A stretch of DNA of 37,708 nucleotides from a virus. Location of the stretch: IMG/VR virus record IMGVR_UViG_3300026255_000014, positions 1 through 37,708 of that record; one strand, 5' to 3'. A model generated the notes under the pieces. The model saw only the letters and a list, made by a program, of their open reading frames with translations, made no database searches and was not told where the DNA came from. Positions 4,585-30,185 of this stretch are shown here, piece by piece. Made by a program: the position numbers and the translations under genes. Each line of letters starts with the position of its first letter. Positions within the stretch are counted from its first letter, which is position 1.

Positions 4585-5071
4585 AACGCCATTGCCAGAT
4601 GCTTTGAAAGAAGCACAGGGAACGCTGAAGAAGAGCCGAGTAAATGACTCTCAGGCTCGTTTTGACGTACCTAAAGACTCACCGAAACCGCCGACAACGC
4701 TCAATCTCTATGGCAAGCGGTTGTGGAAAGAAATGCTGCCAAAGTTGGTTGAAACAGGTCTTTATACCGAAGGTGATCACCAGGCGTTTGAATTGCTTTG
4801 CATGGCTTATGGTGATCTGATTCAGGCACGCAAAGACCTTAAAGAGTCGGGTACGATTGTTATCACAGACAAGGGCACGGTTTATCAGCACCCTAACGTT
4901 GGGATCGCAAACCAGGCTTGGAATCGGGTGAAACTGATGTTGGGGCAGTTTGGGCTGACACCAGCAGAGCGGACACGAGTAAAAGCACGCTCACCCGAAG
5001 AGAAAAGGGGCAGTTTGGCAGAATCGTTGTTTGCTGCTGCACGTGAAAAGGTTGAGGGTGAGACTGAGTGA
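4574..5071 (+). CDS. terS: Terminase small subunit (P27-family-like)
   Basis: Motif GQFGLTPAERTRVKA and N-terminal RGRTPLP resemble P27-family TerS. Start uncertain: GTG 4574 follows an AGGTGGGG SD; ATG 4547 and 4532 are in-frame alternatives. Confidence 0.7.
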   Translation: MRGRTPLPDALKEAQGTLKKSRVNDSQARFDVPKDSPKPPTTLNLYGKRLWKEMLPKLVETGLYTEGDHQAFELLCMAYGDLIQARKDLKESGTIVITDKGTVYQHPNVGIANQAWNRVKLMLGQFGLTPAERTRVKARSPEEKRGSLAESLFAAAREKVEGETE

Positions 5072-6375
5072 GTGCAAATCTGTATTTAGGTGACTGTCTG
5101 GAAGTCTTATCAACGCTTGAAGCGGATAGCATTGACACCTGCATCACTGACCCGCCTTACGAGTTAGGTTTCATGGGTAAGAAGTGGGATTCAAGCGGCA
5201 TTGCGTTCCAGCCTGAAACTTGGCAAGCCGTATTCAGGGTGCTGAAACCAGGTGCAATTCTGCTTGCCTTCGGCGGCACTCGCACCTATCACCGCATTGC
5301 TTGCGCTATTGAGGACGCTGGCTTTGAAATCCGTGACACTATCGCTTGGGTATACGGGAGCGGATTCCCTAAAAGTTACGACATAAGTAAGGGAATTGAC
5401 AAACAAGCTGGAGCTGAAAGGGAAATAGTAGGCTACAAGGAAACATCAACTTATCCAGATAGCGATGGTGTTGCTCATTACAAAAACAGGCAACAAAGCA
5501 ATGGTTCTCAAGTCAATACAGGAGGTATGCCAGAAATCACCGCGCCCTCCACCCCCGAAGCGCAACTCTGGGATGGCTGGGGCACGGCGTTGAAGCCTGC
5601 CTTTGAGCCGATAGTTGTTGCGATGAAGCCGATTGACGGCACGTTTGTCAACAACGCGCTCACTTGGGGCGTGGCTGGCTTGTGGATTGACGGGGGTAGG
5701 GTGGGGACGTCAAAAAACGTTCCTGCATCACCAAGCGATAAAGGCACTCTGCAATGTAAAGGTTTGGGCGGTGGATGGGATAGAAGCGGAATGAATCCGA
5801 ACATTGGTCGCTTCCCTGCCAACTTGATTCACGACGGCTCGGATGAGGTGGTGAGTGGGTTTCCGAATACTACGAGCGGCAAGGTTGCGGCTGGAACTAT
5901 GCGAGGCTTGAAAAGCAATCACAATGTGGCATACGCAGACATCGCCGCCGGAACTGAATTGACTGGCTACGGCGACTCTGGCTCAGCCGCGCGCTTTTTC
6001 TACTGTGCGAAAGCCAGCCGAAGCGAGCGCAACGCTGGGCTGGAGGGGATGGAAGAAAAGGTCGGCGGTGGAATGAAGGGCACGGAAGACCAAACGCTTT
6101 TGACTGGCTCTGGAAACATCCGCAACAATAAAATGCAAAACCACCATCCCACCGTCAAGCCAATCGAACTGATGCGCTACCTTGTTCGGCTTACCAAAAC
6201 GCCAACAGGCGGGGTGGTACTTGACCCGTTCATGGGGTCTGGCACGACTGGCATTGCTTGCGTGTTGGAAGGACGCGAGTTTATCGGAATTGAGCGGGAA
6301 GCGGAGTATGTCGAGATTGCAGAAAAGCGGATTGCGCATTACAGGTTGCCGATATTGGAAGAAGTGATCGAGTGA
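5068..6375 (+). CDS. DNA methyltransferase (N6-adenine/N4-cytosine, beta-class order)
   Basis: N-terminal DPPY (ITDPPYELGF) and C-terminal AdoMet motif LDPFMGSGTTGIA. Confidence 0.85.
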   Translation: MSANLYLGDCLEVLSTLEADSIDTCITDPPYELGFMGKKWDSSGIAFQPETWQAVFRVLKPGAILLAFGGTRTYHRIACAIEDAGFEIRDTIAWVYGSGFPKSYDISKGIDKQAGAEREIVGYKETSTYPDSDGVAHYKNRQQSNGSQVNTGGMPEITAPSTPEAQLWDGWGTALKPAFEPIVVAMKPIDGTFVNNALTWGVAGLWIDGGRVGTSKNVPASPSDKGTLQCKGLGGGWDRSGMNPNIGRFPANLIHDGSDEVVSGFPNTTSGKVAAGTMRGLKSNHNVAYADIAAGTELTGYGDSGSAARFFYCAKASRSERNAGLEGMEEKVGGGMKGTEDQTLLTGSGNIRNNKMQNHHPTVKPIELMRYLVRLTKTPTGGVVLDPFMGSGTTGIACVLEGREFIGIEREAEYVEIAEKRIAHYRLPILEEVIE

Positions 6376-8966
6376 AAAAGTACGATCCCTGGAATTGCGA
6401 CCTTGATAAGTACGAATTTGACCCTGTGGCTGGGCAGGTTGCAGTCGACTTTATTGAAAATTATATTACCCATGTCAAAGGGGAGTTAGGCGGCAAGCCT
6501 TTTTTGCTTTTGGAGTGGGAAAAGGATTTTGTAAGAAACCTTTTCGGTTGGAAAGAAAAGGAAACAGGTTATCGGCGTTACCGTGAGGCGTTTGTATTTG
6601 TGGCACGGAAAAATGGCAAAGCATTAGAAGTCAATACTCCGATTCTGACTACTACAGGTTGGAAGAAACACGGCGATTTAGTCCCTGGAGACTTTGTTTT
6701 TTCTCCTGATGGCGTACCCGCAAAGGTTATCTATTCTACTCCTCATTATGAGGGGAATTGTTATTTTGTGGATTTCTCAGGCGATGAAGCAATTATCGCT
6801 CACGAAAATCACGAATGGAAAACTAACCGCACCTGGTATACAGGAAAGCCCAAATGGATAGAAGGTGAAAAGCCTTTGGTTACCACTAAGCGGATTGCGG
6901 AAACTCTACGATGTGGGAAACGCCAAGACCTTGTGCATTCTGTGGATGTTGCGAAACCGATACAGTTTGAGCCAAAAGAATACACAATACCCCCGTATGT
7001 TTTAGGCGTTTGGCTTGGCGATGGCGACTCTGACAGTTGCAGGATCACGATTGCAGAACCTGAAATTGTCCAGAAGCTATCTGATTATGGTTATCCAGCC
7101 GAATATAGATCAAGATACCGACACCTTGTTGGACGGGGGAAGTTTCAAAAGCAACTGCGTGAAAAGGGCTTACTGGGCAATAAGCATATACCACAAGAAT
7201 ACTTGCTTGGTTCAGTTGAGCAAAGGATCGACCTCTTGCGCGGATTGATGGACACAGACGGTTATGTGTCTTCGGCTGGACAATGCGGAATTGCATTAAC
7301 CGACGGTAATTTGTTTCGCCAAGTTGTCGAATTAATTACAGGCTTGGGATTAAAGCCTCGCGTAATGATTGATCGTGCTCAGTTAAATGGGGTTGACTGC
7401 GGAGTTAGATATAGAGTCCACTTCTATGCCTATCAAGACACGCCAATAGCATATATTGAGCGAAAAGCCAAACGGCAAAAAGAAACTCCAAAAACAAGGC
7501 GGCGCAGCCAGACTCGGATGATTTCAAATGTTACGCCCGCAGGTAAGCAAACAGTCAACTGCATCACAGTCGAAGGCGGGATGTATCTCGCAGGAAAGCA
7601 ACTTATCCCAACTCACAACTCACCTCTTGGGGCTGCCATCGCGCTTTATCTGTTGATTGTAGACAATGAGCCTGGTGCAGAGTTGATCTCTGTAGCAGCA
7701 GACCGAGACCAGGCACGGGCGATTTTTGACACGGCTCGTTTTATGGTAAAGCAAAACGCCGCCCTGGACGAATTGGTTAGTGCATATCGAAATGCGATTG
7801 TCGCTAAGCAAGGGGCTTCAGTTTACAAAGTTGTTTCATCGGATGCTGGCACTAAGCATGGTGGAAACTTACATGCTGCGCTTTTTGACGAGTTGCACGC
7901 TCAGAAGAACCGAGACCTTTACGATGTTGTGCAAACCAGTTTTGGCGCGCGCCGTCAACCACTGCTGATTTCTTTTAGTACGGCAGGGTTTGATCGTGAG
8001 TCGATCTGCTATGAAGTTTACTCAATGGCAAAGCAGATTTCTGAGGGCATAATCCAGCGAGATTGGTTTTACCCCGTAATATACGAGGCATCGCCAGAAG
8101 ACGATTGGACAAGCGAAGATACGTGGAAGAAAGCCAATCCGAGTTTGGGACACTCGATCAAGATTGATTACCTGCAGAAGAATTATGAAAAGGCTCTATC
8201 AAGCCCGCAGTTCCAAAACACTTTCAAGCGTTTGTATCTCAATATGTGGACATCGGCAGAAACACGCTGGCTTGATATGCAAAACTGGGACAAATGCGGT
8301 GAGCAACCGATTGACATGGGACTGCTTGAAGGGGCTGAATGTTACGGCGGTCTTGACCTTGCGACAGTTTCTGACATTGCTGCTTTTGTACTGGATTTCC
8401 CGAATGAAAGCGGTGAAGAGGAATTGCACACCTGGCTTCCGACCTTGTTCTGTCCAGAGTCAAAGTTGACCGACCCAGGTTTCATTGACCGCGACATTTA
8501 CAGGGCTTGGGCTGACCAGGGCTATTTGATTGCAACGCCTGGAAACGTGATTGACTACGAGTACATCATTGCTGAAATTGAGCGATTAGGTGAACTTTAC
8601 AACATTAAAGAGATCGCATTTGACCGTTGGGGTGCTGCACAGATTTCACAAACGCTTACCAATATGGGCTTTACTTTGGTTGGTTTTGGTCAAGGGTACG
8701 TGAGCATGTCACCACCCACAAAAGAAGTTGAGCGGTTGATATTACAAGGCAGGGTGAGACATGGAAACCACCCTGTAATGCGTTGGATGGCGGATAACGT
8801 TATGGTTACGACTGACCCTGCAGGGAATATCAAGCCAGACAAGAAGAAAAGCAGGCAGAAGATTGACGGCGTGGTTGCGGCAATCATGGCAACCGATAGG
8901 GCAATTAGAAATTCTGTAGGTCGCAAGGACTCTGTTTACGAAAAAAGAGGGTTGGTTGTTCTATGA
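6372..8966 (+). CDS. terL: Terminase large subunit, interrupted by an in-frame intein
   Basis: 864 aa; removing residues 84..416 yields the P-loop ARKNGKS and a Walker B-like LLIVDNE with a C-terminal nuclease-like domain. GTG start overlaps the upstream stop. Confidence 0.9.
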   Translation: MKKYDPWNCDLDKYEFDPVAGQVAVDFIENYITHVKGELGGKPFLLLEWEKDFVRNLFGWKEKETGYRRYREAFVFVARKNGKALEVNTPILTTTGWKKHGDLVPGDFVFSPDGVPAKVIYSTPHYEGNCYFVDFSGDEAIIAHENHEWKTNRTWYTGKPKWIEGEKPLVTTKRIAETLRCGKRQDLVHSVDVAKPIQFEPKEYTIPPYVLGVWLGDGDSDSCRITIAEPEIVQKLSDYGYPAEYRSRYRHLVGRGKFQKQLREKGLLGNKHIPQEYLLGSVEQRIDLLRGLMDTDGYVSSAGQCGIALTDGNLFRQVVELITGLGLKPRVMIDRAQLNGVDCGVRYRVHFYAYQDTPIAYIERKAKRQKETPKTRRRSQTRMISNVTPAGKQTVNCITVEGGMYLAGKQLIPTHNSPLGAAIALYLLIVDNEPGAELISVAADRDQARAIFDTARFMVKQNAALDELVSAYRNAIVAKQGASVYKVVSSDAGTKHGGNLHAALFDELHAQKNRDLYDVVQTSFGARRQPLLISFSTAGFDRESICYEVYSMAKQISEGIIQRDWFYPVIYEASPEDDWTSEDTWKKANPSLGHSIKIDYLQKNYEKALSSPQFQNTFKRLYLNMWTSAETRWLDMQNWDKCGEQPIDMGLLEGAECYGGLDLATVSDIAAFVLDFPNESGEEELHTWLPTLFCPESKLTDPGFIDRDIYRAWADQGYLIATPGNVIDYEYIIAEIERLGELYNIKEIAFDRWGAAQISQTLTNMGFTLVGFGQGYVSMSPPTKEVERLILQGRVRHGNHPVMRWMADNVMVTTDPAGNIKPDKKKSRQKIDGVVAAIMATDRAIRNSVGRKDSVYEKRGLVVL
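6621..7619 (+). mobile_element. Intein (333 aa) with LAGLIDADG homing endonuclease domain inside the TerL Walker A motif
   Basis: Begins ALEVNTPILT, contains LGVWLGDGDS and LLRGLMDTDGYV, ends ...LIPTHN followed by Ser; splicing restores ARKNGK|SPLG. Confidence 0.8.
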
Positions 8967-14672: not shown

Positions 14673-15125
14673 ATGAGTGAAGAGCCTATCGAAGAAGAAG
14701 GCACGACCATCATTCAGGCATTGCAGACTTACATTGCAGATTGCGAGCTTTTGTCTGAAATGGGGCTGACACCGCTTGTCAACTGGTTAGAACAAACGCC
14801 AGACAGTTACGGGATTTTTCCTTTACCTGGCGATAAACAAATATACAGTTACCCAGCAAAAGGGGGAATGTACGAGTTCCCATTTGCGCTTCAGGTCAAT
14901 TCTTCAAACGCTGACGATCTGGCGAGATTGCAGACACAAGGCTTTTTTGAGAAATTTGGGAAATGGCTTGACGCTCAGAACGAGGCGGAAAACTATCCTA
15001 CGTTGAGCAGCGGTGAAACTGTTTATGAAATTGAAGCTCTTGGTCAGGGTTACTTGCTCGACCAGGGGGATTCTGATGTAAGCACCTACGAAGTGCCTTG
15101 CAGACTTACTTACGAAAGGATTTAA
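14673..15125 (+). CDS. Hypothetical neck/tail completion protein
   Basis: Position only. Confidence 0.4.
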   Translation: MSEEPIEEEGTTIIQALQTYIADCELLSEMGLTPLVNWLEQTPDSYGIFPLPGDKQIYSYPAKGGMYEFPFALQVNSSNADDLARLQTQGFFEKFGKWLDAQNEAENYPTLSSGETVYEIEALGQGYLLDQGDSDVSTYEVPCRLTYERI

Positions 15126-15129
15126 CAAC

Positions 15130-15606
15130 ATGGCAATCAAGCGTTCAAAACTATTGCATTTTATGAACACTACGCCGTCAAGCACGGCAACTTACTACTT
15201 GATGAACACTGGTATCACCAGCCTTAGTATCAACAAGAATCCAACTTACCTGGAAGAAGGGTACATCGCTGACGATGTTGGCAGCAAACAGTTGGAAAGT
15301 CTTGCGCCTGAGTTCACATTTGAGATCAACGTGGACTCGGCTGACGAAGTTTCAAAGTTCTTGACTGGTTTGGAATGGAACGACAAAACCCTGACCGATG
15401 TTGAGACAGACATTGTTTCTGTGCAGTATTGGAAAACCCCAACTGGAACTGCCTATCCTGCAAAAAAGTATAAGGTTTCTGTTTCTGTTGAAACAATCGG
15501 TGACGAAGCGTTGAAGACGCTAAAACATTCCGTTACCTGTGGCGTTATGGGCGATGCGGTCTTTGGGACATTCAACACCTCTTCCAAAGCCTTTAGTGCG
15601 ACCTAA
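15130..15606 (+). CDS. Major tail protein, paralog 1
   Basis: Position upstream of chaperones and tape measure; homologous to the adjacent gene. Confidence 0.6.
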   Translation: MAIKRSKLLHFMNTTPSSTATYYLMNTGITSLSINKNPTYLEEGYIADDVGSKQLESLAPEFTFEINVDSADEVSKFLTGLEWNDKTLTDVETDIVSVQYWKTPTGTAYPAKKYKVSVSVETIGDEALKTLKHSVTCGVMGDAVFGTFNTSSKAFSAT

Positions 15607-15623
15607 TTAGAAAGGAATAAATA

Positions 15624-16133
15624 ATGGCGATCAAAAGATCAAAATTACAACATTTTATGAATACCACGCCAGACGAGACAACTCCATCTGGCGGTGAAAC
15701 ATGGTCGTTGATGAACACTGGCATTACCAGCCTGAGCATCAACAAAAACCCAACCTATCTTGAGGAAGGGTACATTGCCGACGATGTTGGCAGTAAACAG
15801 CTTGAGAGCCTTGCGCCTGAGTTCACTTTTGAGATCAATGTAGATGAGGACGACCCTGTGTCTATTTATCTGACTGACTTAGAGTGGGAAGATGCAACTT
15901 TGGAAGACGTTGAAACCAGCATCGTGTCTGTGCAGTTGTGGCAGACTCCCTCTGGCACTGCTCCAAACTTATTGTACCCTGCGAAGAAATACAACGTGTC
16001 AATCTCGGTTGAAACCATTGGCGATGAAGCGTTGAAAACGCTAAAGCATTCGGTGACCGCTGGTGTGATGGGCGATGCGGTCTTTGGGACTTTCAATCCG
16101 AACACAAAAGCCTTTGTAGAAGACGAGGATTAG
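15624..16133 (+). CDS. Major tail protein, paralog 2
   Basis: Protein is alignable along its length with 15130..15606 (identical N-terminus MAIKRSKL.HFMNTTP and long shared blocks). Confidence 0.6.
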   Translation: MAIKRSKLQHFMNTTPDETTPSGGETWSLMNTGITSLSINKNPTYLEEGYIADDVGSKQLESLAPEFTFEINVDEDDPVSIYLTDLEWEDATLEDVETSIVSVQLWQTPSGTAPNLLYPAKKYNVSISVETIGDEALKTLKHSVTAGVMGDAVFGTFNPNTKAFVEDED

Positions 16134-16136
16134 TTG

Positions 16137-16577
16137 ATGGAATCAATCAATATCAAAACCGATAGCCAGCGGACTTTGTGTATCAACGATGACGAGTCCA
16201 GGTGGATTTCGTTTGATGCAGAAGACCTGAATTTCTACGGTAGGCTGAAGGTCTTATATAGTTCGCTTGGTGGAAAGCAAAAAGAGTTTGAAGTCAAAGA
16301 AGCCGAAGCACGTGCTCTTGAGGGCGAGGATGAGAACGGTGCGCCGTTGTCTGCTTTGGCTTTGATTGACATTCAGACCGAGTTTGCCAGTCATGTGACT
16401 GAAGGAATGGACGCGGTATTCGGTGAGGGCACTTGCCAACGCCTGTTTGGAAACACGTTCAATCCAGACGCTTACGGTGAACTAATCAAGGCTATTTTGA
16501 CACACATTTCAAAATACCGTGAGAAGAAACTGCAGGCTGAACTGAAAAAAAATCCAGGCAAAAAGGTAATGAAATAA
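16137..16577 (+). CDS. Tail assembly chaperone (candidate)
   Basis: Acidic ~147-aa protein immediately upstream of the tape measure gene. Confidence 0.45.
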   Translation: MESINIKTDSQRTLCINDDESRWISFDAEDLNFYGRLKVLYSSLGGKQKEFEVKEAEARALEGEDENGAPLSALALIDIQTEFASHVTEGMDAVFGEGTCQRLFGNTFNPDAYGELIKAILTHISKYREKKLQAELKKNPGKKVMK

Positions 16578-16578
16578 G

Positions 16579-17196
16579 TTGAAGAACTTTCTGATCGAGC
16601 AGTTTCCTGATGCAATCGAGATTGACGGTGAAGTATATGCCGTCAATACTGATTTTCGTGTCGGGTTACAGATTATGGCTGACTTTGAGAATCCTGAGTT
16701 TGACCAGGATGAGAAGGGCTATCTAATGCTCAATCGGCTTTATCGTGATTTGCCAGATGACAGGGACGGCGAGTTTTATCAGGAAGCGTTATCAAAGGCG
16801 ACTAAATTTCTGAACGCTGGCGATGAGGCAGGACAAGACGTTGACGGCAAACCACGGCTTTACTCGTTTGACAAAGACGCACGGTTGATCTATTCTGCTT
16901 TCTCACAGACTCACGGTGTAGACCTGCAAACAGCCGATATGCACTGGTGGAGGTTTATCGCTCTCTTCATGGATTTGGGGGCAGATACGGCTTTCAATTC
17001 TATGGTCAACCTACGGAAACGTTATCACGAAGGCAAGTTGACCGATGAAGAAAAGAAATTGGTAGCGCGGTTAGGCAATGATTTTCTACTTGAGCAGGAA
17101 GAAAGTTATGAGCCGCTTGACCCTGATGAAATTGCATTTATTGAACTTTTACCAGAAGAAGACCAAAAGAGGTTTTGGGAAAGCAGGAAACGCTAA
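16579..17196 (+). CDS. Tail assembly protein (Gp15-like, candidate)
   Basis: TTG start; N-terminal pattern recalled from the Gp15 family; stop overlaps the TMP start (TAATG). Confidence 0.4.
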   Translation: MKNFLIEQFPDAIEIDGEVYAVNTDFRVGLQIMADFENPEFDQDEKGYLMLNRLYRDLPDDRDGEFYQEALSKATKFLNAGDEAGQDVDGKPRLYSFDKDARLIYSAFSQTHGVDLQTADMHWWRFIALFMDLGADTAFNSMVNLRKRYHEGKLTDEEKKLVARLGNDFLLEQEESYEPLDPDEIAFIELLPEEDQKRFWESRKR

Positions 17197-19901
17197 TGGC
17201 GTATGATGGCAGTATACGGATTAATACAAAAATTGACGGCAAGGGCTTCAACACTGGCATAAAGAGAATGATGTCCAGCCTGGGAAGCCTGACCGCTGCG
17301 ATTGGTGTTGCTTTAAGCGTGGCGGGTCTGGTCAACTTTGGCAAGAAAAGCGTAGAAACTGCTATGCAAATGGAAGCAGGTTGGCAAGGCTTGAGTTATA
17401 TGGCAAGAGCCTACGGCAAAGACATCAACCAAATCTCAGAGTTTTTGCAGGACTACACAAAAGACGGTTTAGTGCCAATGATGAACGCACAGCAAGCCTA
17501 TAAGAACATGCTTGCCCGTGGGTACGACACAGAACAGCTTGAAAAGATGCTGCTGATTATGAAAGACAGCGCAGTTTATCTTCGCAAAGGGCAGTTGAGC
17601 ATCGGCGATGCAATCGAGAAAACCACAATGGGCTTGCGGACAGAGCGATCTATCCTGACCGACTCCTCTGGTATCGAAAAGAACATGTATAAAATGTGGC
17701 AAGCCTACGCAAAGGAAATGGGAACAACCATTTCGGCTTTGACGGAAGAGCAGAAACTTATCGCCGAGTTCCAGGGTTTCATGGAAGAGGGCGCGGTTTA
17801 TGCTGGGGCTGCCGCTGAGTACACCCAAACTTACGCTGGTCGAGTGGCGCAATTAACCGCAGCAATGGTCGGTTTGAAGGTGTCCGTGGGTAACATGCTC
17901 ATCCCATTGCTGAATGCGATGCTGCCGAAAATTATTGAGATAGTACATTGGTTTACCCGCCTTTTCAACATCGTTGGGCGCGTGTTGAACTTATTATTTG
18001 GCACAAACGTTGGGGCAATAGACGCTATAGCTGAAGGGACTGAAGATGCCGCAGATGCACAGGACGCGTTGGCTGATGCGACTGGCGAGGCGGGCAAGGC
18101 GGCTAAAGGTGCATTGGCTGCGTTTGACAAGTTGAATGTACTGGCACAACCAAAAGCAGCGAGCGGTGCTGGTGACACAGACTTAGGCTTGCCAGAAGAA
18201 GAGGAAGACGGTGGTGCGCTTGGCAAGATTGGGAAAGCACTTGATGAGTTAGAGATAAAGATTGCGGCTTTCAAACAGAACTTGCTTGCTTTCTTCGCAC
18301 CATTACAAGAGCCGTTTAATCGCTTGAAAGAGGCTTTTCTGACCTTAGGCGCGACCATCGGTACTGGCTTAGGCTGGGCGTGGGAAAACATCTTGCAGCC
18401 ATTTTTCACCTGGATAGTCCAAAGCGTTGCTCCCGTTGCTCTTGACATTATTTCTGGAGCACTTGGTGTCCTAAACGAGATTTTGATTGCAGTTTCTCCG
18501 TTGTTTGTCGCTCTGTGGGAGAACGTACTGAAGCCGTTAGGGGAGTGGGCTGGCGAGGCGTTTATCCAAGCCCTGACTTGGATTTCAGAAAAACTTACGG
18601 AGCTAAGCGATTGGATCAGCACTCACCAGGAGACAGTTCAGACAATTGCAACCATCTTAGGAAGTTTCGCCGCAGCATGGATTCTCGTGAACGGCGCGAT
18701 TGGTATTTGGAGTGGAATAGCTGCTATAGCCACGAGCGTAACAACTGCGTTTGCTGGTGCGGTTGCGTTTCTGACATCGCCAATAGGGTTGGTGGTTTTG
18801 GCAATTGGGGCGGTAATTGCAATTGGTGTGTTACTGATCCAGCATTGGGACGACGTAAAAGCCTGGGCGATTAGCACCTGGGAAAAGATCAAAGAAGTTT
18901 GGGGTGTAGTCGCAGGCTGGTTTAACGAGAAGGTAGTTGAGCCACTAAAGGCGTTCTTTGCTCCAATAGCTGAATGGTTTTCAACCAACGTTACTGATCC
19001 ACTGAAAGAGAAGTTTGCAAACCTTGTCGAGAAGTGGACTGAACTCAAAGACGTGATCAAAGAGAAGATCATTGACCCTGTAGTAAAATTCTTTGAGGAA
19101 ACCCTTAAGCCGCTGATTGCAGCCGTCCTGGACTTTCTGAAGGATTACTTTGCTGAAGTTTGGGAGGGCATAAAAGATGTCATATCTACAGTGATTGGTG
19201 CAATCGGTTTGATTTTCGAGACACAGCTTGAGTTTTGGAAAGGCATTTTTTCAGGTGTCTTCGAGGCTATCGGTGGAATTATCAAAGGTGCGTTGGAGGT
19301 TATTACTGCGGTAATAGGGACGATCATTGACGTAATCGCTGGGATTATCACCTTCCTGACTGGTGTGTTTACTGGCGATTGGGACAAAGCCTGGCAGGGT
19401 ATCAAAGACATCGTGATTGGCATTTGGGACGGGATTGTTGGTGTAATCAAGGGCGCAATCAATGGGATCATCGGGTTTATCAACGGGATGATCAATGGCA
19501 TTGTATCTGGAATCAACAACGTAATCGGCGTGCTCAATAATCTGAATATTGAAATCCCCGATTGGATTCCATTTTGGGGCGGAAAGACTTTTGGCTTCAA
19601 CCTACAAGCCCTTACTGCCCCGCAAATTCCTTTACTTGCCACTGGCGCAGTTATCCCCGCCAATGCGCCGTTCGCGGCAATCCTGGGCGACCAGAAGTCT
19701 GGTACGAATGTCGAAGCACCGCTGAAAACCATTGAGCAAGCTGTGGACAATGTGCTGGCACGGCGGGGGCTTAATACTGGTACAGACAATGGGTTGATCC
19801 ACAACGTTATCAAATTGGACGGGCAAGTCTTATATGATGCGTTTAAGAAAATTGACAAGCGCGTTGGCAGAAGCATGATTGCAGGGAGCGGTATACGATG
19901 A
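17196..19901 (+). CDS. Tail tape measure protein
   Basis: ~900 aa, alpha-helical N-terminal part, Gly/Ala/Ile-rich hydrophobic C-terminal region, position after chaperones. Confidence 0.85.
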   Translation: MAYDGSIRINTKIDGKGFNTGIKRMMSSLGSLTAAIGVALSVAGLVNFGKKSVETAMQMEAGWQGLSYMARAYGKDINQISEFLQDYTKDGLVPMMNAQQAYKNMLARGYDTEQLEKMLLIMKDSAVYLRKGQLSIGDAIEKTTMGLRTERSILTDSSGIEKNMYKMWQAYAKEMGTTISALTEEQKLIAEFQGFMEEGAVYAGAAAEYTQTYAGRVAQLTAAMVGLKVSVGNMLIPLLNAMLPKIIEIVHWFTRLFNIVGRVLNLLFGTNVGAIDAIAEGTEDAADAQDALADATGEAGKAAKGALAAFDKLNVLAQPKAASGAGDTDLGLPEEEEDGGALGKIGKALDELEIKIAAFKQNLLAFFAPLQEPFNRLKEAFLTLGATIGTGLGWAWENILQPFFTWIVQSVAPVALDIISGALGVLNEILIAVSPLFVALWENVLKPLGEWAGEAFIQALTWISEKLTELSDWISTHQETVQTIATILGSFAAAWILVNGAIGIWSGIAAIATSVTTAFAGAVAFLTSPIGLVVLAIGAVIAIGVLLIQHWDDVKAWAISTWEKIKEVWGVVAGWFNEKVVEPLKAFFAPIAEWFSTNVTDPLKEKFANLVEKWTELKDVIKEKIIDPVVKFFEETLKPLIAAVLDFLKDYFAEVWEGIKDVISTVIGAIGLIFETQLEFWKGIFSGVFEAIGGIIKGALEVITAVIGTIIDVIAGIITFLTGVFTGDWDKAWQGIKDIVIGIWDGIVGVIKGAINGIIGFINGMINGIVSGINNVIGVLNNLNIEIPDWIPFWGGKTFGFNLQALTAPQIPLLATGAVIPANAPFAAILGDQKSGTNVEAPLKTIEQAVDNVLARRGLNTGTDNGLIHNVIKLDGQVLYDAFKKIDKRVGRSMIAGSGIR

Positions 19902-24057: not shown

Positions 24058-25470
24058 ATGACTTATCCGTTCGGCATTGACATTTCGGCTTACCAATACT
24101 CACAAGACGGCTCACGAAAGCCCGACTTCGACCTAATCAACGAAAAGTGTGACTTCGTTGCCGTGCGTGCTGGCATCAGTTGGGGGTACACCGACAAGTG
24201 GTTTGAGTATTCGTGGTCACACGTTCTCAGACCGAGGCTGGGGTATCACGTGGTTTACCCTGGCGAGAGTGCGACTGCACAAATGAAACACTTTCTCAAC
24301 ATCGTGCATCCAACTCAGAATGACCGCCTTGTGCTTGATATGGAACTCGACCACGGCTATAGCAAGGCTCGAATCACAAAAACGCTTGTGGACTGTATGA
24401 ACATTATACAGACAGAGACGGGGCGTTATCCTGTGATTTACAGCAGGGCTTATTGGATTAACCAGTTTGTAGACGTGAACGCTTTGCCAGAAAAGACCGA
24501 CTGGTGGTTAGCAAACTACCTGCGTTCTAATCCCGACCCGTATTTCACGCCAGAGATGACACCGCCGCCTATGTTGCCAAACGGTGTGAAGAATTGGCTC
24601 ATCCATCAAACGTCAAAAGAACAGGACGGCAGTAAGGTGGGCGTGGTTAGTCACTATGTGGACACTAATCGTTGGAACGGTACACACGATGAGTTGCTGG
24701 CTTACTTCGGTTACGATGAGCAACCAGAGCCTGAACCTGAACCTGAACCGGAAGAGCCTTTGTTCCAAGCACGCGTTTACAGCTGGGCGACTCCCTACGT
24801 CAACGTGAGAGCCGAACCTTCATTAAGCGCAGGGAAAGTCGGCTTCAAATACCCGTTAGCGGTGACCGATGTTATGAGCACGATGCCTGACTGGTACGAA
24901 GTGCCCGAAGGCTGGATGATGTCTCGATTCTTAGAACGGCTTGACTATGACCCGCCCGCCACGATGCTTGCAATCAAGCCGCTCTCACAAAGAGACACGC
25001 GCTGGGCTTCTCACAAACTCGGTTATTCCTATTACACGATAGGCGGTTACGGATGCCTTATCACAGCTATCAGTATGATACTGAACTGGTACGGCAAGCA
25101 GACCGACCCGGCGCAACTCAATGACGCTTTGGTTAGGGTGGGCGGTTTCACGGGTGCAAACCTTTATTGGAACGCAATCGCGCAAGTTCAGCCTGACATT
25201 TACCTTGCAAAGGCTATCGACTGCTACTATATTCCAGCACCCTTGCACGAAATAGACGCTCTGCTTGCGGATGACGTTCCCGTCTTGGTGCACGTTGACT
25301 TCACGCCGGGTGGCGCGGTAGATCAGCATTGGGTGCTGATTGTCGGCAAGTCGGGCGATGATTACATCATCAATGACCCGTGGACTGGGGAGCAAGGTAG
25401 TTTCCGCACTCGTTATGGCGATCCTGCCCGCTGGATATTCCGCATCAGGGCGTATCGGAGGCAAGCATGA
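24058..25470 (+). CDS. Modular endolysin: GH25 muramidase, (EP)n linker, C-terminal C39-like cysteine peptidase
   Basis: N-terminal FGIDISAYQ typical of GH25; linker EPEPEPEPEPEEP; C-terminal GYGCLITAISM and DQHWVLIVG suggest a papain-like Cys/His pair. Confidence 0.8.
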   Translation: MTYPFGIDISAYQYSQDGSRKPDFDLINEKCDFVAVRAGISWGYTDKWFEYSWSHVLRPRLGYHVVYPGESATAQMKHFLNIVHPTQNDRLVLDMELDHGYSKARITKTLVDCMNIIQTETGRYPVIYSRAYWINQFVDVNALPEKTDWWLANYLRSNPDPYFTPEMTPPPMLPNGVKNWLIHQTSKEQDGSKVGVVSHYVDTNRWNGTHDELLAYFGYDEQPEPEPEPEPEEPLFQARVYSWATPYVNVRAEPSLSAGKVGFKYPLAVTDVMSTMPDWYEVPEGWMMSRFLERLDYDPPATMLAIKPLSQRDTRWASHKLGYSYYTIGGYGCLITAISMILNWYGKQTDPAQLNDALVRVGGFTGANLYWNAIAQVQPDIYLAKAIDCYYIPAPLHEIDALLADDVPVLVHVDFTPGGAVDQHWVLIVGKSGDDYIINDPWTGEQGSFRTRYGDPARWIFRIRAYRRQA

Positions 25471-28426: not shown

Positions 28427-28698
28427 CATTACAAAATCCATTGAAAGACCCTTCCGCAGTGCTGGATTATGTGTTCGACTGGACGGAATGGCTGGCAACC
28501 GGCGAAACAATCACCGACCATACTATCACAGCCGACACGGGTATCACCGTTGACAGTTCGACTGAATCAGACGGCAAAGTTACCGTCTGGCTCTCAGGCG
28601 GTACGGCTGGTATCAATTACAAAGTGGCGTGCCTGATTACAACGTCCGCAGGGCGAACCGACGAGCGCACAATCTGGATCAAGGTGGTCGAAAGGTGA
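28417..28698 (+). CDS. Small conserved-looking phage protein (possible fiber-associated)
   Basis: Pattern DYVFDWTEWL...VTVWLSGGTAG.NYKV recalled as a recurrent phage family; function unknown. Confidence 0.35.
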   Translation: MSLTLQNPLKDPSAVLDYVFDWTEWLATGETITDHTITADTGITVDSSTESDGKVTVWLSGGTAGINYKVACLITTSAGRTDERTIWIKVVER

Positions 28699-30185
28699 GC
28701 AATTTGTTTCCAGACATAACGGGCGTGCTATATGAAGAAGAACAGTCAAAATTACATGAGATAGCCAAAACAACTACGCATCCAATTGTCAACATTGGCG
28801 TATATCAAGGATTGTCTACCGCACAACTTGCAAGTGGCACAAAGCAGAGCGTGTACGCCATTGACATTTGGGATGAGCGACCAGCAGGGTATGTCCCAAG
28901 TAAAAGGGACTTGATGAGGGGATACCACCTGAAGAAAACTCAGGACGTTTTCCTTGAAAACATGGAAAAGCACGGCTTGACAAACGTTATCCCGATAAAG
29001 GGTAACAGCAAGGTGGTTGGCAAAACCTGGGACACCCCGATAGGCGTGTTGTTTATCGACGGTGATCACCATTACAAATCCGCGCTTTCGGATTACAGCT
29101 TGTTTGCAAAACACATTGTAGTCGGCGGATGGTTAGCAATTCACGATTATCACATAAAAGACGTTAGAAGGGTGATAGACGAGATCATCATTCCTTCGGG
29201 ACTGTGGACGGACATTGAACTGACAGAGACCTTATGGGTTTGCAAGAGAAAGTCGTGCACGACAGCAGACGCAAAACCGCCTATGACATACTGGATACGC
29301 CATCATCAGCACAAAGGGAAGCCAATTGAAGACGCTTTAATTAGTCAAGGATGGCAGTGTAGTGACGCGCCAGATATTGCCTTGTTCGACACCGCGAGGA
29401 ACAAACCTATAGAACGCAGGTTTAGAAGAGGGGGCGCAACGCTTGTAGTCTATCCGCATACGGCAATTGCTGGCTGGTGGTACGACGGGATATTAGAACC
29501 GCCTAACGGCTTTAGTGCAATACTGGCTATCGGGGAAGGACAGAAGGAAGTCCAGAATATCATCACGCCGAACATCAGGGTTGAAACAATTGGTTGGAGT
29601 TATTGTCCAATCTTGCCATTTCAAAAGCCAAAGGCGATCAAGCAAATACTGTTTGCCCCCATCCATCCAAGCCTCAATGGCAAGTTGAGATCAGAGGCAA
29701 AAGACGTGAACGTCAGGGTGTATAAGCGTTTGCTGGAAATGAAAGGCGTGCAGATAAACCTTCGTGTTATTGGCGATCTTGAAAAGAATGGATTATGGCA
29801 CTCGCCAGATGTTACAACCACAGAAGCCCAACCAGACGGAAGTTATGCAGAAATTGATTCTGCAGATTTGGTGATAGGCGAGGGCATGTTTCTATCGCTT
29901 GCAGTAGCCAGAGGGAAGCCAGCTATCGGAATGAATCAGCGCGTAACACAGAAAGTAAACTGGAGTGGGCGCGTTCCAAAACGGTGGAACGAATATAACC
30001 ACTTACAAGCATATCCGATTGACTTTGATGACGCTGATCTGCCGGAGTTGATTGACAAGGCGGTAGACGAATCACAGGTAAGCAACTGGAAGAAACGCTT
30101 TATCGGTGAGCAGTTGCAACCTGAGCATTTATCAAACGTGCTAAAGGACATCAGGAATGAGCATGCCAAACAGAGAGAACAATAA
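28695..30185 (+). CDS. Fusion protein: class I SAM-dependent methyltransferase-like N-terminus, glycosyltransferase-like C-terminal domain
   Basis: NIGVYQGLST...FIDGDHHY...GGWLAIHDY resembles Methyltransf_24-type O-methyltransferases; C-terminal ADLVIGEGMFLSLAVARGKPAIG resembles GT-B C-terminal domains. GTG start overlaps upstream stop. Confidence 0.5.
   Translation: MSNLFPDITGVLYEEEQSKLHEIAKTTTHPIVNIGVYQGLSTAQLASGTKQSVYAIDIWDERPAGYVPSKRDLMRGYHLKKTQDVFLENMEKHGLTNVIPIKGNSKVVGKTWDTPIGVLFIDGDHHYKSALSDYSLFAKHIVVGGWLAIHDYHIKDVRRVIDEIIIPSGLWTDIELTETLWVCKRKSCTTADAKPPMTYWIRHHQHKGKPIEDALISQGWQCSDAPDIALFDTARNKPIERRFRRGGATLVVYPHTAIAGWWYDGILEPPNGFSAILAIGEGQKEVQNIITPNIRVETIGWSYCPILPFQKPKAIKQILFAPIHPSLNGKLRSEAKDVNVRVYKRLLEMKGVQINLRVIGDLEKNGLWHSPDVTTTEAQPDGSYAEIDSADLVIGEGMFLSLAVARGKPAIGMNQRVTQKVNWSGRVPKRWNEYNHLQAYPIDFDDADLPELIDKAVDESQVSNWKKRFIGEQLQPEHLSNVLKDIRNEHAKQREQ

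What the first reader, a model, noticed from the sequence alone, without database searches (positions are those of the whole stretch)
15130..16133. Tandem duplication of the major tail protein gene
Two adjacent genes encode proteins alignable along their whole length with identical N-termini, but the DNA has many synonymous differences, so both copies are old and maintained. Two distinct major tail subunits could mean a heteromeric tail tube or alternative tails.
Basis: seen in the sequence. Interest (0 to 1): 0.5.

Follow-up and report, generated by a model that had tools for sequence, protein, structure and literature searches.

The report
Two adjacent paralogous tail-tube genes
An uncultivated long-tailed phage carries two neighbouring, anciently diverged copies of its tail-tube gene, both kept intact by selection, which probably build one mixed tube with two different outer surfaces; similar gene pairs are already known in other phages, though nobody has shown what they do.

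Summary
ORF A (15130-15606, 158 aa) and ORF B (15624-16133, 169 aa) are 79% identical in protein (E 6e-93) but only 73% in DNA. Half of the conserved codons differ synonymously (dN about 0.14, dS 1.1-1.7).

Both are tail-tube (major tail) proteins by three tests:
- profile match to a solved "phage tail tube protein" (PDB 11ok, E 7e-21);
- AlphaFold models matching NF5, 80alpha, monocin, SPP1 and lambda tubes;
- position between the tail-completion gene and the chaperone/tape-measure genes.

The A-B pair, with a conserved 17-nt Shine-Dalgarno spacer, recurs in at least 15 other metagenome contigs. No A-type or B-type gene was found alone, and each copy is under purifying selection (omega 0.04-0.18). 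About 20 related phages have one copy.

A and B are not sister sequences; B is closer to some single-copy genes. The origin is therefore an ancient duplication with later losses, or capture of a homologue.

The 27 type-specific positions lie in the beta1-beta2 loop, the outer helix, the beta4-beta5 loop and the C-terminus. The lumen and ring-contact elements are nearly identical. B is far more acidic (net -19 against -5).

The likeliest reading is a co-assembled mixed tube. This is untested. Two related tail-tube genes are already described in actinophages, so novelty is moderate.

The parts
14673..15125 (+). Tail completion / tail terminator-like gene immediately upstream. Its last codons contain the Shine-Dalgarno sequence of gene A (GAAAGGA, 15114-15120).
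   Evidence: phrog_3266 'tail completion', E 1.6e-26. Sequence read. The upstream 30 nt are identical in all two-copy loci.
15130..15606 (+). Tail-tube (major tail) protein paralogue A: 158 aa, net charge -5, one Cys (C137).
   Evidence: phrog_3099 E 1.2e-30 and phrog_820 'major tail protein' E 0.003. AF2 model pLDDT 85.6, matching the NF5, 80alpha, monocin and SPP1 tail tubes at TM 0.65-0.73. Intact at 158 aa in all two-copy loci.
15607..15623 (+). 17-nt A-B spacer TTAGAAAGGAATAAATA carrying the Shine-Dalgarno sequence of gene B (GAAAGGA, 15610-15616). It has no hairpin, promoter or terminator.
   Evidence: Length and SD are conserved in all two-copy loci, including the variant pair in L037. 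It has no stable fold (z -0.22), and the promoter/terminator scan finds nothing above background.
15624..16133 (+). Tail-tube (major tail) protein paralogue B: 169 aa, net charge -19, acidic C-terminus VEDED. The stop codon abuts the start of the chaperone gene.
   Evidence: phrog_3099 E 1e-27 and phrog_820 E 5e-4. The family profile hits PDB 11ok 'Phage tail tube protein' at E 6.9e-21. AF2 model pLDDT 76.7, matching tail tubes. Charge.
16134..16577 (+). First tail assembly chaperone-like gene (weak DUF6673 match). It starts directly after the stop of B.
   Evidence: 72-99% identical orthologues follow the tail-tube gene in all relatives.
16579..17196 (+). Phage_Gp15-family protein (the second chaperone position).
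   Evidence: PF06854, E 7.7e-32.
17175..19901 (+). Tape measure protein, 908 aa.
   Evidence: phrog_1535 and many other tape-measure families, E 5e-88.

Best explanation
Genes A and B are two co-transcribed, separately translated subunits of the non-contractile tail tube of an uncultivated siphophage. Each has its own GAAAGGA ribosome-binding site 7-9 nt before its ATG. No regulatory signal lies between them, so both should be made together late in infection in comparable amounts (inferred).

The parts of the fold that build the tube are identical or nearly so in A and B. These are the inner beta-sheet lining the lumen, the beta2-beta3 hairpin that makes the main ring-to-ring contact, and beta5/beta6. 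The fixed differences lie in the beta1-beta2 loop, the outward-facing alpha-helix, the beta4-beta5 loop and the C-terminal tail. Most of them change charge, making B strongly acidic.

The most likely mechanism is therefore that A and B co-polymerise around the tape measure into one mixed tube. Its lattice is that of a normal homomeric tube, but its outer surface shows two chemistries. This would be the functional counterpart of the gp17.1/gp17.1* mixture of SPP1, reached here with two genes instead of a frameshift. Whether mixing is random or ordered is unknown.

Shown here: homology, fold, synteny, conservation of the pair, purifying selection on both copies, and the location of the differences on the predicted secondary structure.

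Inferred: co-expression, co-assembly and surface exposure.

The pair is ancient and has a single origin (homologous spacer). It arose either by duplication before the split from L009/L011-type phages, with later losses there, or by capture of a homologous gene.
For: Identity as tube proteins:
- PDB 11ok 'Phage tail tube protein', E 6.9e-21.
- Foldseek hits to the NF5, 80alpha, monocin, SPP1 and lambda gpV tubes for both models.
- Position between the tail completion gene and the Gp15-type chaperone plus tape measure.

Both copies needed:
- The A-B pair is full-length in 10 loci and partly visible in 7 more. No A-type or B-type gene was found alone.
- Within-A and within-B omega is 0.04-0.18 at dS 0.25-1.0.
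- 27 positions are fixed differently between all A and all B copies.
- There is no gene conversion: within-genome A-B DNA identity is 0.72-0.74, against 0.68-0.74 between genomes.

Lattice-compatible core, divergent exterior:
- Discriminating columns fall at B residues 17-28, 75-91, 107-116 and 159-168, plus positions 9 and 127.
- On the AF2 secondary structure and the canonical tube-protein topology (PMC8718954), these are the beta1-beta2 loop, the outer helix, the exterior beta4-beta5.1 loop and the C-arm.
- Net charge is -5 to -9 for A, -18 to -19 for B, and -4 to -13 for single-copy relatives.

Co-expression:
- A conserved 17-nt SD spacer, with no hairpin, promoter or terminator.
- Codon usage and GC3 of both copies match the neighbouring genes.
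Against: - There are no expression, proteomic or structural data for this phage. Co-assembly is inferred only from sequence conservation mapped on a monomer model.
- The C-terminal arm is a major ring-to-ring contact in SPP1 and 80alpha, and it differs between A and B. Free mixing is therefore not guaranteed.
- About 20 related phages manage with a single gene, so a second subunit is not intrinsically required.
- In SPP1 the second tube form is dispensable (PMC8718954), so a mixed tube may have only a marginal role.
- The deep phylogeny is poorly resolved, because the protein is only about 160 aa.
Confidence: 0.5

Rival explanations
1. Division of labour along the tail. One paralogue builds the bulk of the tube. 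The other forms a specialised segment, such as the first rings on the tail tip or the last rings under the tail-completion protein. This would resemble the tube-initiator or adaptor paralogues of T4 (gp48/gp54 against gp19) and of Afp/PVC particles (Afp5/Afp7 against Afp1).
For: - Type-specific residues are fixed across the whole clade.
- The C-terminal arm, an inter-ring contact in 80alpha and SPP1, differs between A and B, including B's acidic VEDED tail.
- Foldseek also hits tube-like adaptor chains of neck and baseplate complexes.
Against: - Known positional paralogues are highly diverged and usually lie in other modules. Here the copies are 79% identical, with near-identical beta2-beta3 hairpin and inner sheet.
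- The two similar ribosome-binding sites give no hint of the strongly unequal dosage that a few-ring component would need.
Confidence: 0.17
2. Dosage or redundancy. A and B are functionally interchangeable, and the second copy is kept mainly to raise tube-protein output relative to the downstream chaperones and tape measure. In these phages it would replace the stem-loop that follows the single tube gene in relatives.
For: - Single-copy relatives from several lineages carry a strong GC stem-loop, with compensatory changes and sometimes a T-tract, directly after the tube gene.
- All two-copy phages lack it at both junctions.
- Both copies have the same kind of SD.
Against: - Pure dosage does not explain 27 positions fixed differently between A and B, or the consistent 13-unit charge difference, maintained over dS up to 1 within each clade.
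- Identical repeats would be expected to homogenise or to delete. Instead there is no gene conversion.
Confidence: 0.15
3. Alternative tails. Individual virions carry a tube made only of A or only of B, giving two particle types with different surface properties (bet-hedging).
For: The two exteriors differ markedly in charge.
Against: - The genes are 17 nt apart in one operon, with no promoter, terminator, invertible element or switch between them.
- With nearly identical assembly interfaces, co-expressed subunits would be expected to mix.
Confidence: 0.05
4. One copy has left the virion. It would serve another role, for example as a decoy for, or an escape from, a host defence that senses tail-tube proteins. 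That such defences exist (DSR2 sensing a Bacillus phage tube protein) is my recollection and was not checked here.
For: None directly. It is compatible only with the retention of two diverged copies.
Against: - Both copies keep every element of the tube fold and the assembly hairpin under strong purifying selection.
- Both remain inside the tail operon.
Confidence: 0.04

Closest known systems
[quoted passage not shown] Gordonia phage FortCran gp22/gp24, Arthrobacter phage Giantsbane gp18/gp23, Microbacterium phage Damascus gp17/gp19)
   Same: Two homologous major tail protein genes sit in one tail module and are conserved in every member of the lineage. Their function is unknown, and horizontal acquisition of one copy has been proposed (PMC12859696; bioRxiv 10.1101/2020.01.10.891226; PMC11080557).
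   Different: - In the actinophages the copies are separated by one or more genes and are much more diverged (43% identity in FortCran). One copy has a deviant G+C content.
- Here the genes are directly adjacent (17 nt), 79% identical and compositionally alike.
- This lineage is different: uncultivated, from digester and bioreactor samples, and distantly related to C. difficile phage phiCD38-2.
SPP1 gp17.1 / gp17.1* (by my recollection also the two tail-protein forms of Listeria phages A118 and PSA)
   Same: Two forms of the tube subunit share the lattice-forming core and differ on the outside. They co-assemble in one tube at 3:1 in SPP1 (PMC8718954). The tail module here is of the same general type: Phage_Gp15 chaperone and a weak tube_lmo2291 match.
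   Different: - In those phages one gene yields two products by programmed frameshifting, and the difference is an added Ig/FN3 domain.
- Here there are two genes, no extra domain, and the differences are point substitutions and short loop indels.
Fused double-domain tube proteins: T5 pb6 and Thermus phage P74-26 tail tube protein
   Same: These are products of a duplication of the tube domain. The two copies occupy alternating positions of a pseudo-hexameric ring (PMC5717097; PMC10034513).
   Different: - Those are single polypeptides forming trimers.
- Here the copies are separate ORFs, divided by a TAA stop and a 17-nt out-of-frame spacer. No evidence of ordered alternation exists.
Bacillus phage G gp179/gp180
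   Same: Two adjacent tube-protein candidates lie in the canonical tube position (PMC8570332).
   Different: Phage G is a myophage. The two proteins differ in size (242 and 189 residues) and are only remotely similar to known tubes. Their roles are likewise unresolved.
PDB 11ok 'Phage tail tube protein' and Clostridioides phage phiCD38-2 gp12
   Same: These are the closest solved and the closest isolate-encoded homologues of the protein family (E 6.9e-21; 26% identity).
   Different: Both are single-copy. The 11ok entry contains 12 chains of one sequence. gp12 is 266 aa, with a C-terminal extension that A and B lack.

Membership tests
Siphophage major tail / tail-tube protein (PHROG 3099 group; relatives of PDB 11ok) | Significant sequence similarity to an experimentally solved or annotated tail-tube protein | tested here: met
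   The profile of 60 family members hits 11ok_A 'Phage tail tube protein' at E 6.9e-21 over 150 positions. phrog_3099 gives E 1e-30 and 1e-27; phrog_820 'major tail protein' gives E 0.003 and 5e-4.
Siphophage major tail / tail-tube protein (PHROG 3099 group; relatives of PDB 11ok) | Beta-sandwich flanked by one alpha-helix, with a long beta2-beta3 hairpin (the canonical tube fold) | tested here: met
   AF2 models of B (pLDDT 76.7) and A (pLDDT 85.6) have this topology. Foldseek gives probability 1.0 against the NF5, 80alpha, monocin, SPP1, lambda and GTA tubes, with TM up to 0.73.
Siphophage major tail / tail-tube protein (PHROG 3099 group; relatives of PDB 11ok) | Gene located between the head-tail joining / tail completion genes and the chaperones plus tape measure | tested here: met
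   The same synteny holds in all related loci.
Siphophage major tail / tail-tube protein (PHROG 3099 group; relatives of PDB 11ok) | Most abundant tail protein of the virion; polymerises into stacked hexameric rings | not testable with these tools
   The phage is uncultivated, and no proteome or particle data are available.
NCBIfam NF047353 tube_lmo2291 (equivalog) | Score above the curated cut-off (27 bits) | tested here: not met
   A scores 16.6 bits and B 19.6 bits. They are related but are not members of this equivalog.
[quoted passage not shown] | Two homologous major tail protein genes in one tail module, conserved across the lineage | tested here: met
   The A-B pair is present in every contig that carries an A-type or B-type gene.
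[quoted passage not shown] | Common descent with the actinophage pairs (same duplication event or same protein family) | not tested
   The actinophage proteins were not compared. No actinophage appeared among the tblastn hits in the phage collection, so the pair here is most likely an independent event.
Frameshift-generated tube isoforms (SPP1 gp17.1/gp17.1*) | One gene whose second product arises by a programmed frameshift that adds a C-terminal domain | tested here: not met
   There are two complete ORFs, each with its own ATG and SD, and neither has an added domain.
Fused duplicated tube proteins (T5 pb6, P74-26) | Two tube domains in one polypeptide | tested here: not met
   A ends in a TAA stop. 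The 17-nt spacer puts B out of frame: 20 nt separate the last sense codon of A from the ATG of B.

The most novel reading that the evidence does not exclude
A and B are obligate partners that occupy defined, alternating positions. This would be an A3B3 pseudo-hexameric ring or alternating A6/B6 rings. It would make this the first free-standing two-gene heteromeric siphophage tail tube, and a living intermediate on the evolutionary path to the fused double-domain tube proteins of T5 and P74-26. The unbroken linkage of the pair, the fixed type-specific residues (including the C-arm), and the complementary shift in charge relative to single-copy relatives (A less acidic, B more acidic) do not exclude this.
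Probability: 0.12. Interest if true: 0.75.

Novelty: new member of a known kind. Interest (0 to 1): 0.4.

Why it matters
Siphophage tail tubes solved so far are homopolymers, isoform mixtures from one gene, or fused duplicates. What a second, separately encoded tube subunit does is unanswered, even for the actinophage clusters where such pairs are routinely annotated.

This pair may be an unusually clean case for study:
- The proteins are small (158 and 169 aa) and carry no decoration domains.
- The lattice core is almost identical, and all differences fall in a few predicted exterior elements.
- Many natural variants exist for both copies, and single-copy relatives can serve as controls.

Recombinant co-assembly and cryo-EM could show directly whether two-gene tubes are mixed, ordered or segregated, and whether surface charge is the selected trait. 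If the pair is only a mixed-surface tube, the result is a modest extension of what SPP1 already taught.

Tried and rejected
- Prophage or host search: a scan of 185,579 reference genomes with the family alignment found no relative, so the host stays unknown. The phage collection holds only distant single-copy homologues (C. difficile phiCD38-2 and phiCD146, 26% identity).
- Gene conversion or concerted evolution: rejected. Within-genome A-B identity is no higher than between-genome identity.
- Recent foreign origin of one copy, judged by composition: GC, GC3 and codon choice of A and B are indistinguishable from the neighbouring genes. This does not exclude capture from a close relative.
- Regulatory element between the copies: no promoter or terminator above shuffled background, and no stable RNA fold.
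- Simple in-lineage duplication (A and B as sisters): found in 2% of 300 NJ bootstraps. The deep nodes are otherwise unresolved.
- Tandem tube genes in more distant family members: four long contigs checked (L039, L040, L041, L043). All are single-copy, and the gene after the tube gene is not similar to it.
- Programmed frameshift between the two chaperone genes: there is an A8 run, but the second frame is closed by a TGA 9 nt before its start, so no G/GT-like overlap exists.
- Pfam: no family matches A or B.
- Residue-level mapping on a hexamer: not possible, because no coordinates or multimer prediction were available. Mapping rests on secondary structure and the published canonical topology.

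Full report
**1. The observation**

The window carries two adjacent + strand ORFs: A at 15130-15606 (158 aa) and B at 15624-16133 (169 aa), 17 nt apart.
- BLASTP aligns them end to end: 130/164 identical (79%), E 6e-93, with two short indels.
- In a codon alignment, 64 codons are identical, 66 differ only synonymously and 28 are non-synonymous.
- DNA identity is 72.8%, dN is about 0.14, and dS is at or near saturation (LWL85 1.7-1.9; NG86 undefined).

The only caveat is that the N-termini are strictly identical for just 8 residues.

**2. What the genes are**

PHROG 3099 (no assigned function) matches both proteins at E 1e-30 and 1e-27. Much weaker matches are found to phrog_820 'major tail protein' and to NCBIfam tube_lmo2291, the latter below its cut-off. 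Pfam has nothing.

Three stronger lines of evidence identify them as tail-tube proteins:
- A profile of 60 family members matches the solved chain 11ok_A, deposited as 'Phage tail tube protein', at E 6.9e-21.
- AlphaFold models of B (pLDDT 76.7) and A (pLDDT 85.6) have the same topology: a beta-sandwich plus one helix. They match tail-tube proteins of phages NF5, 80alpha, SPP1, lambda and YDC107, of the monocin, and of the GTA (Foldseek probability 1.0, TM up to 0.73).
- The genes lie between a tail-completion gene (phrog_3266) and two chaperone-position genes (the second is Phage_Gp15, E 8e-32), followed by a 908-aa tape measure.

The rest of the window is a typical siphophage: small terminase, large terminase, portal, protease, major capsid, adaptors, tail, endolysin and replication genes.

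**3. Distribution**

tblastn of A, B and their neighbours against all fetched loci, together with look-ups of individual proteins, gives a clear picture.

Two-copy loci:
- Both genes are full-length in the window and in L003, L004, L005, L007, L021, L022, L025, L034 and L038.
- Both are partly visible at contig ends in L001, L002, L006, L008, L024, L035 and L036. L001 and L002 begin with the last codons of A.
- No A-type or B-type gene was found without its partner.
- All A copies are 158 aa and all B copies are 168-169 aa. The spacer is always 17 nt with GAAAGGA.
- L037 shows a variant pair. A B-related gene (P0019) is preceded by the 3' end of another tube gene and by the same kind of spacer.

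Single-copy loci: relatives whose flanking genes are 65-98% identical to the window's have one tube gene, 73-83% identical to both A and B. These are L009/L010/L027/L030, L011/L012/L014, L013/L026/L028, L015, L016 and L017. More distant family members also have one copy: L018, L039-L043, and phiCD38-2 gp12.

All samples are bioreactor, fermentation or digester metagenomes. No reference genome carries a relative.

**4. Age and origin**

- dS between A and B is 1.1-1.7 in four genomes.
- dS between B and the L009-type single gene is 0.95, and between B and the L011-type gene 1.7.
- dS between A and any single gene is at least 2.3 or undefined.
- In 300 NJ bootstraps the B clade is monophyletic (100%). 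A+B excluding single-copy genes appears in only 2%. Deep nodes are otherwise weak.
- Within-genome A-B DNA identity (0.72-0.74) is no higher than between genomes (0.68-0.74), so there has been no gene conversion.
- GC3 and codon choice of both copies match the neighbouring genes.

The split is therefore at least as old as the divergence of these phages from their single-copy relatives. It reflects either an old duplication with later losses or the capture of a homologue from a related phage. Recombination at exactly this boundary does occur. L027 has a 98%-identical tail-completion gene next to an 83%-identical tube gene, and the N-terminus of L007_A resembles L011-type genes.

The A-B spacer (TTAGAAAGGAATAAATA) resembles the ribosome-binding region in front of the chaperone gene of L011-type phages (ATAGAAAGGTAAATAG). 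This is what a head-to-tail duplication of the 'tube gene plus downstream spacer' unit would leave. The resemblance rests on reading and is only suggestive.

**5. Selection**

Within the A clade and within the B clade, omega is 0.04-0.18 at dS 0.25-1.0. Twenty-seven alignment columns are fixed differently between all A and all B sequences. Both copies are therefore functional, and their differences are themselves conserved.

**6. Where the differences lie**

The discriminating columns fall at B residues 17-28, 75-91, 107-116 and 159-168, plus position 9 and a V/I change at 127. I placed them on the models' secondary structure and on the canonical tube-protein topology described by Zinke et al. 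(PMC8718954). They correspond to:
- the beta1-beta2 loop;
- the alpha-helix, which runs along the outside of the tube;
- the beta4-beta5.1 loop, which protrudes to the exterior in 80alpha and SPP1;
- the C-terminal arm.

The inner-sheet strands form the 24-stranded lumen barrel, and the beta2-beta3 hairpin is the main ring-to-ring contact in most systems. Both are identical or nearly so in A and B.

Most differences change charge. Net charge is -5 to -9 for A, -18 to -19 for B, and -4 to -13 for single-copy genes. The exposure assignments are inferred from a monomer model and the literature, not computed on an assembled tube.

**7. Expression context**

Both genes have GAAAGGA 7-9 nt before the ATG. 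No promoter or terminator signal exceeds shuffled background, and the junctions do not fold.

Single-copy relatives from several lineages carry a strong stem-loop directly after the tube gene. It has 11-15 bp, shows compensatory changes between lineages, and is followed by a T-tract in some. The two-copy phages lack it after A and after B, and B's stop codon abuts the chaperone start. B's acidic tail VEDED is encoded by what aligns with the old ribosome-binding region. Whether hairpin loss and gene doubling are causally linked (a dosage effect) is unexplained.

**8. Mechanism**

The best-supported reading is a mixed tube. A and B are made together, share the lattice-forming core and co-polymerise. 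The tube then has a standard lumen and stacking but a chemically two-toned exterior.

| Reading | Probability |
|---|---|
| Mixed, co-assembled tube | about 0.5 |
| One copy confined to a specialised segment | 0.17 |
| Dosage or redundancy | 0.15 |
| Alternative tails | 0.05 |
| A non-virion role for one copy | 0.04 |

An ordered A3B3 or alternating-ring tube would be an evolutionary intermediate towards T5 pb6 and P74-26. It is not excluded (about 0.12, counted within the mixed-tube reading).

**9. Comparison with what is known**

[quoted passage not shown] In those the copies are non-adjacent and more diverged (43% in FortCran).
- Phage G has two adjacent tube candidates.
- SPP1 makes two tube forms by frameshifting, and the second is dispensable.
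- T5 and P74-26 have fused duplicated tube domains.

The present pair fails the defining features of the frameshift class and of the fusion class. It fits the 'two related genes' class as a new, probably independent member. It is distinguished by direct adjacency, high identity and differences confined to predicted exterior elements.

**10. Verdict**

The feature is real, ancient and selectively maintained, and it is correctly identified as two tail-tube genes. 'Tandem duplication' describes the arrangement accurately but is unproven as its origin. Novelty is moderate and interest is 0.4. The case is attractive mainly as a tractable system for asking what a second tube subunit does.

Noticed in passing
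window 6372-8966: The large terminase is 864 aa. Its ATPase domain is matched in two separate stretches, with a homing-endonuclease domain (PF05204 Hom_end, aa 273-350) between them. This suggests an intein inside the terminase ATPase.
   Followed up: no
window 5068-6375: An N6/N4 DNA methyltransferase gene sits between the small and large terminase genes. A second methyltransferase-domain protein lies at 28629-30185.
   Followed up: no
L009:5930-5960, L011:4410-4436, L013:3047-3073, L015, L017, L018, L039, L040, L043 (downstream of the tube gene): Single-copy relatives have a strong GC-rich stem-loop in the 50-80-nt spacer between the tube gene and the first chaperone gene. The stem sequence differs between lineages but pairing is kept, and L039, L040 and L018 add a T-tract. 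All two-copy phages lack it at both junctions.
   Followed up: partly
L001, L002, L006, L008, L016, L024, L025 (contig ends): Metagenome contigs repeatedly break inside or next to the tube gene(s). L001 and L002 start in the last codons of A, L006 and L008 start inside A, and L024 ends inside B. This probably reflects strain-level variation or short shared repeats (17-22 nt exact matches between A and B) that confuse assemblers.
   Followed up: partly
L027:989-1914; L007:5507-5600: There is mosaic recombination at the tube locus. L027 has a tail-completion protein 98% identical to the window's, next to a single tube gene only 83% identical to B. The N-terminal loop of L007's A copy resembles L011-type single-copy genes.
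   Followed up: partly
L037:1-100: A second kind of pair: the B-related gene P0019 is preceded by the 3' end of a tube gene whose C-terminus (..FIPNSKTFTAS) looks like L011-type genes rather than A-type, followed by the same 17-nt spacer. Only 26 codons of the upstream gene are on the contig.
   Followed up: partly
window 16540-16580: An A8 run (16545-16552) lies near the end of the first chaperone gene. However, the frame of the next gene is closed by a TGA at 16570, so there is no long overlap of the lambda G/GT type. The second gene appears to start on its own at TTG 16579.
   Followed up: partly
window 24058-25470: The endolysin combines a GH25 muramidase domain with a C-terminal Peptidase_C39-like cysteine protease domain.
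   Followed up: no
L020 (phiCD38-2 gp12); proteins P0073, P0074, P0077, P0078: Some distant family members are 255-266 aa. They have the 160-aa tube domain plus a C-terminal extension, presumably a decoration domain, that A, B and their close relatives lack.
   Followed up: no
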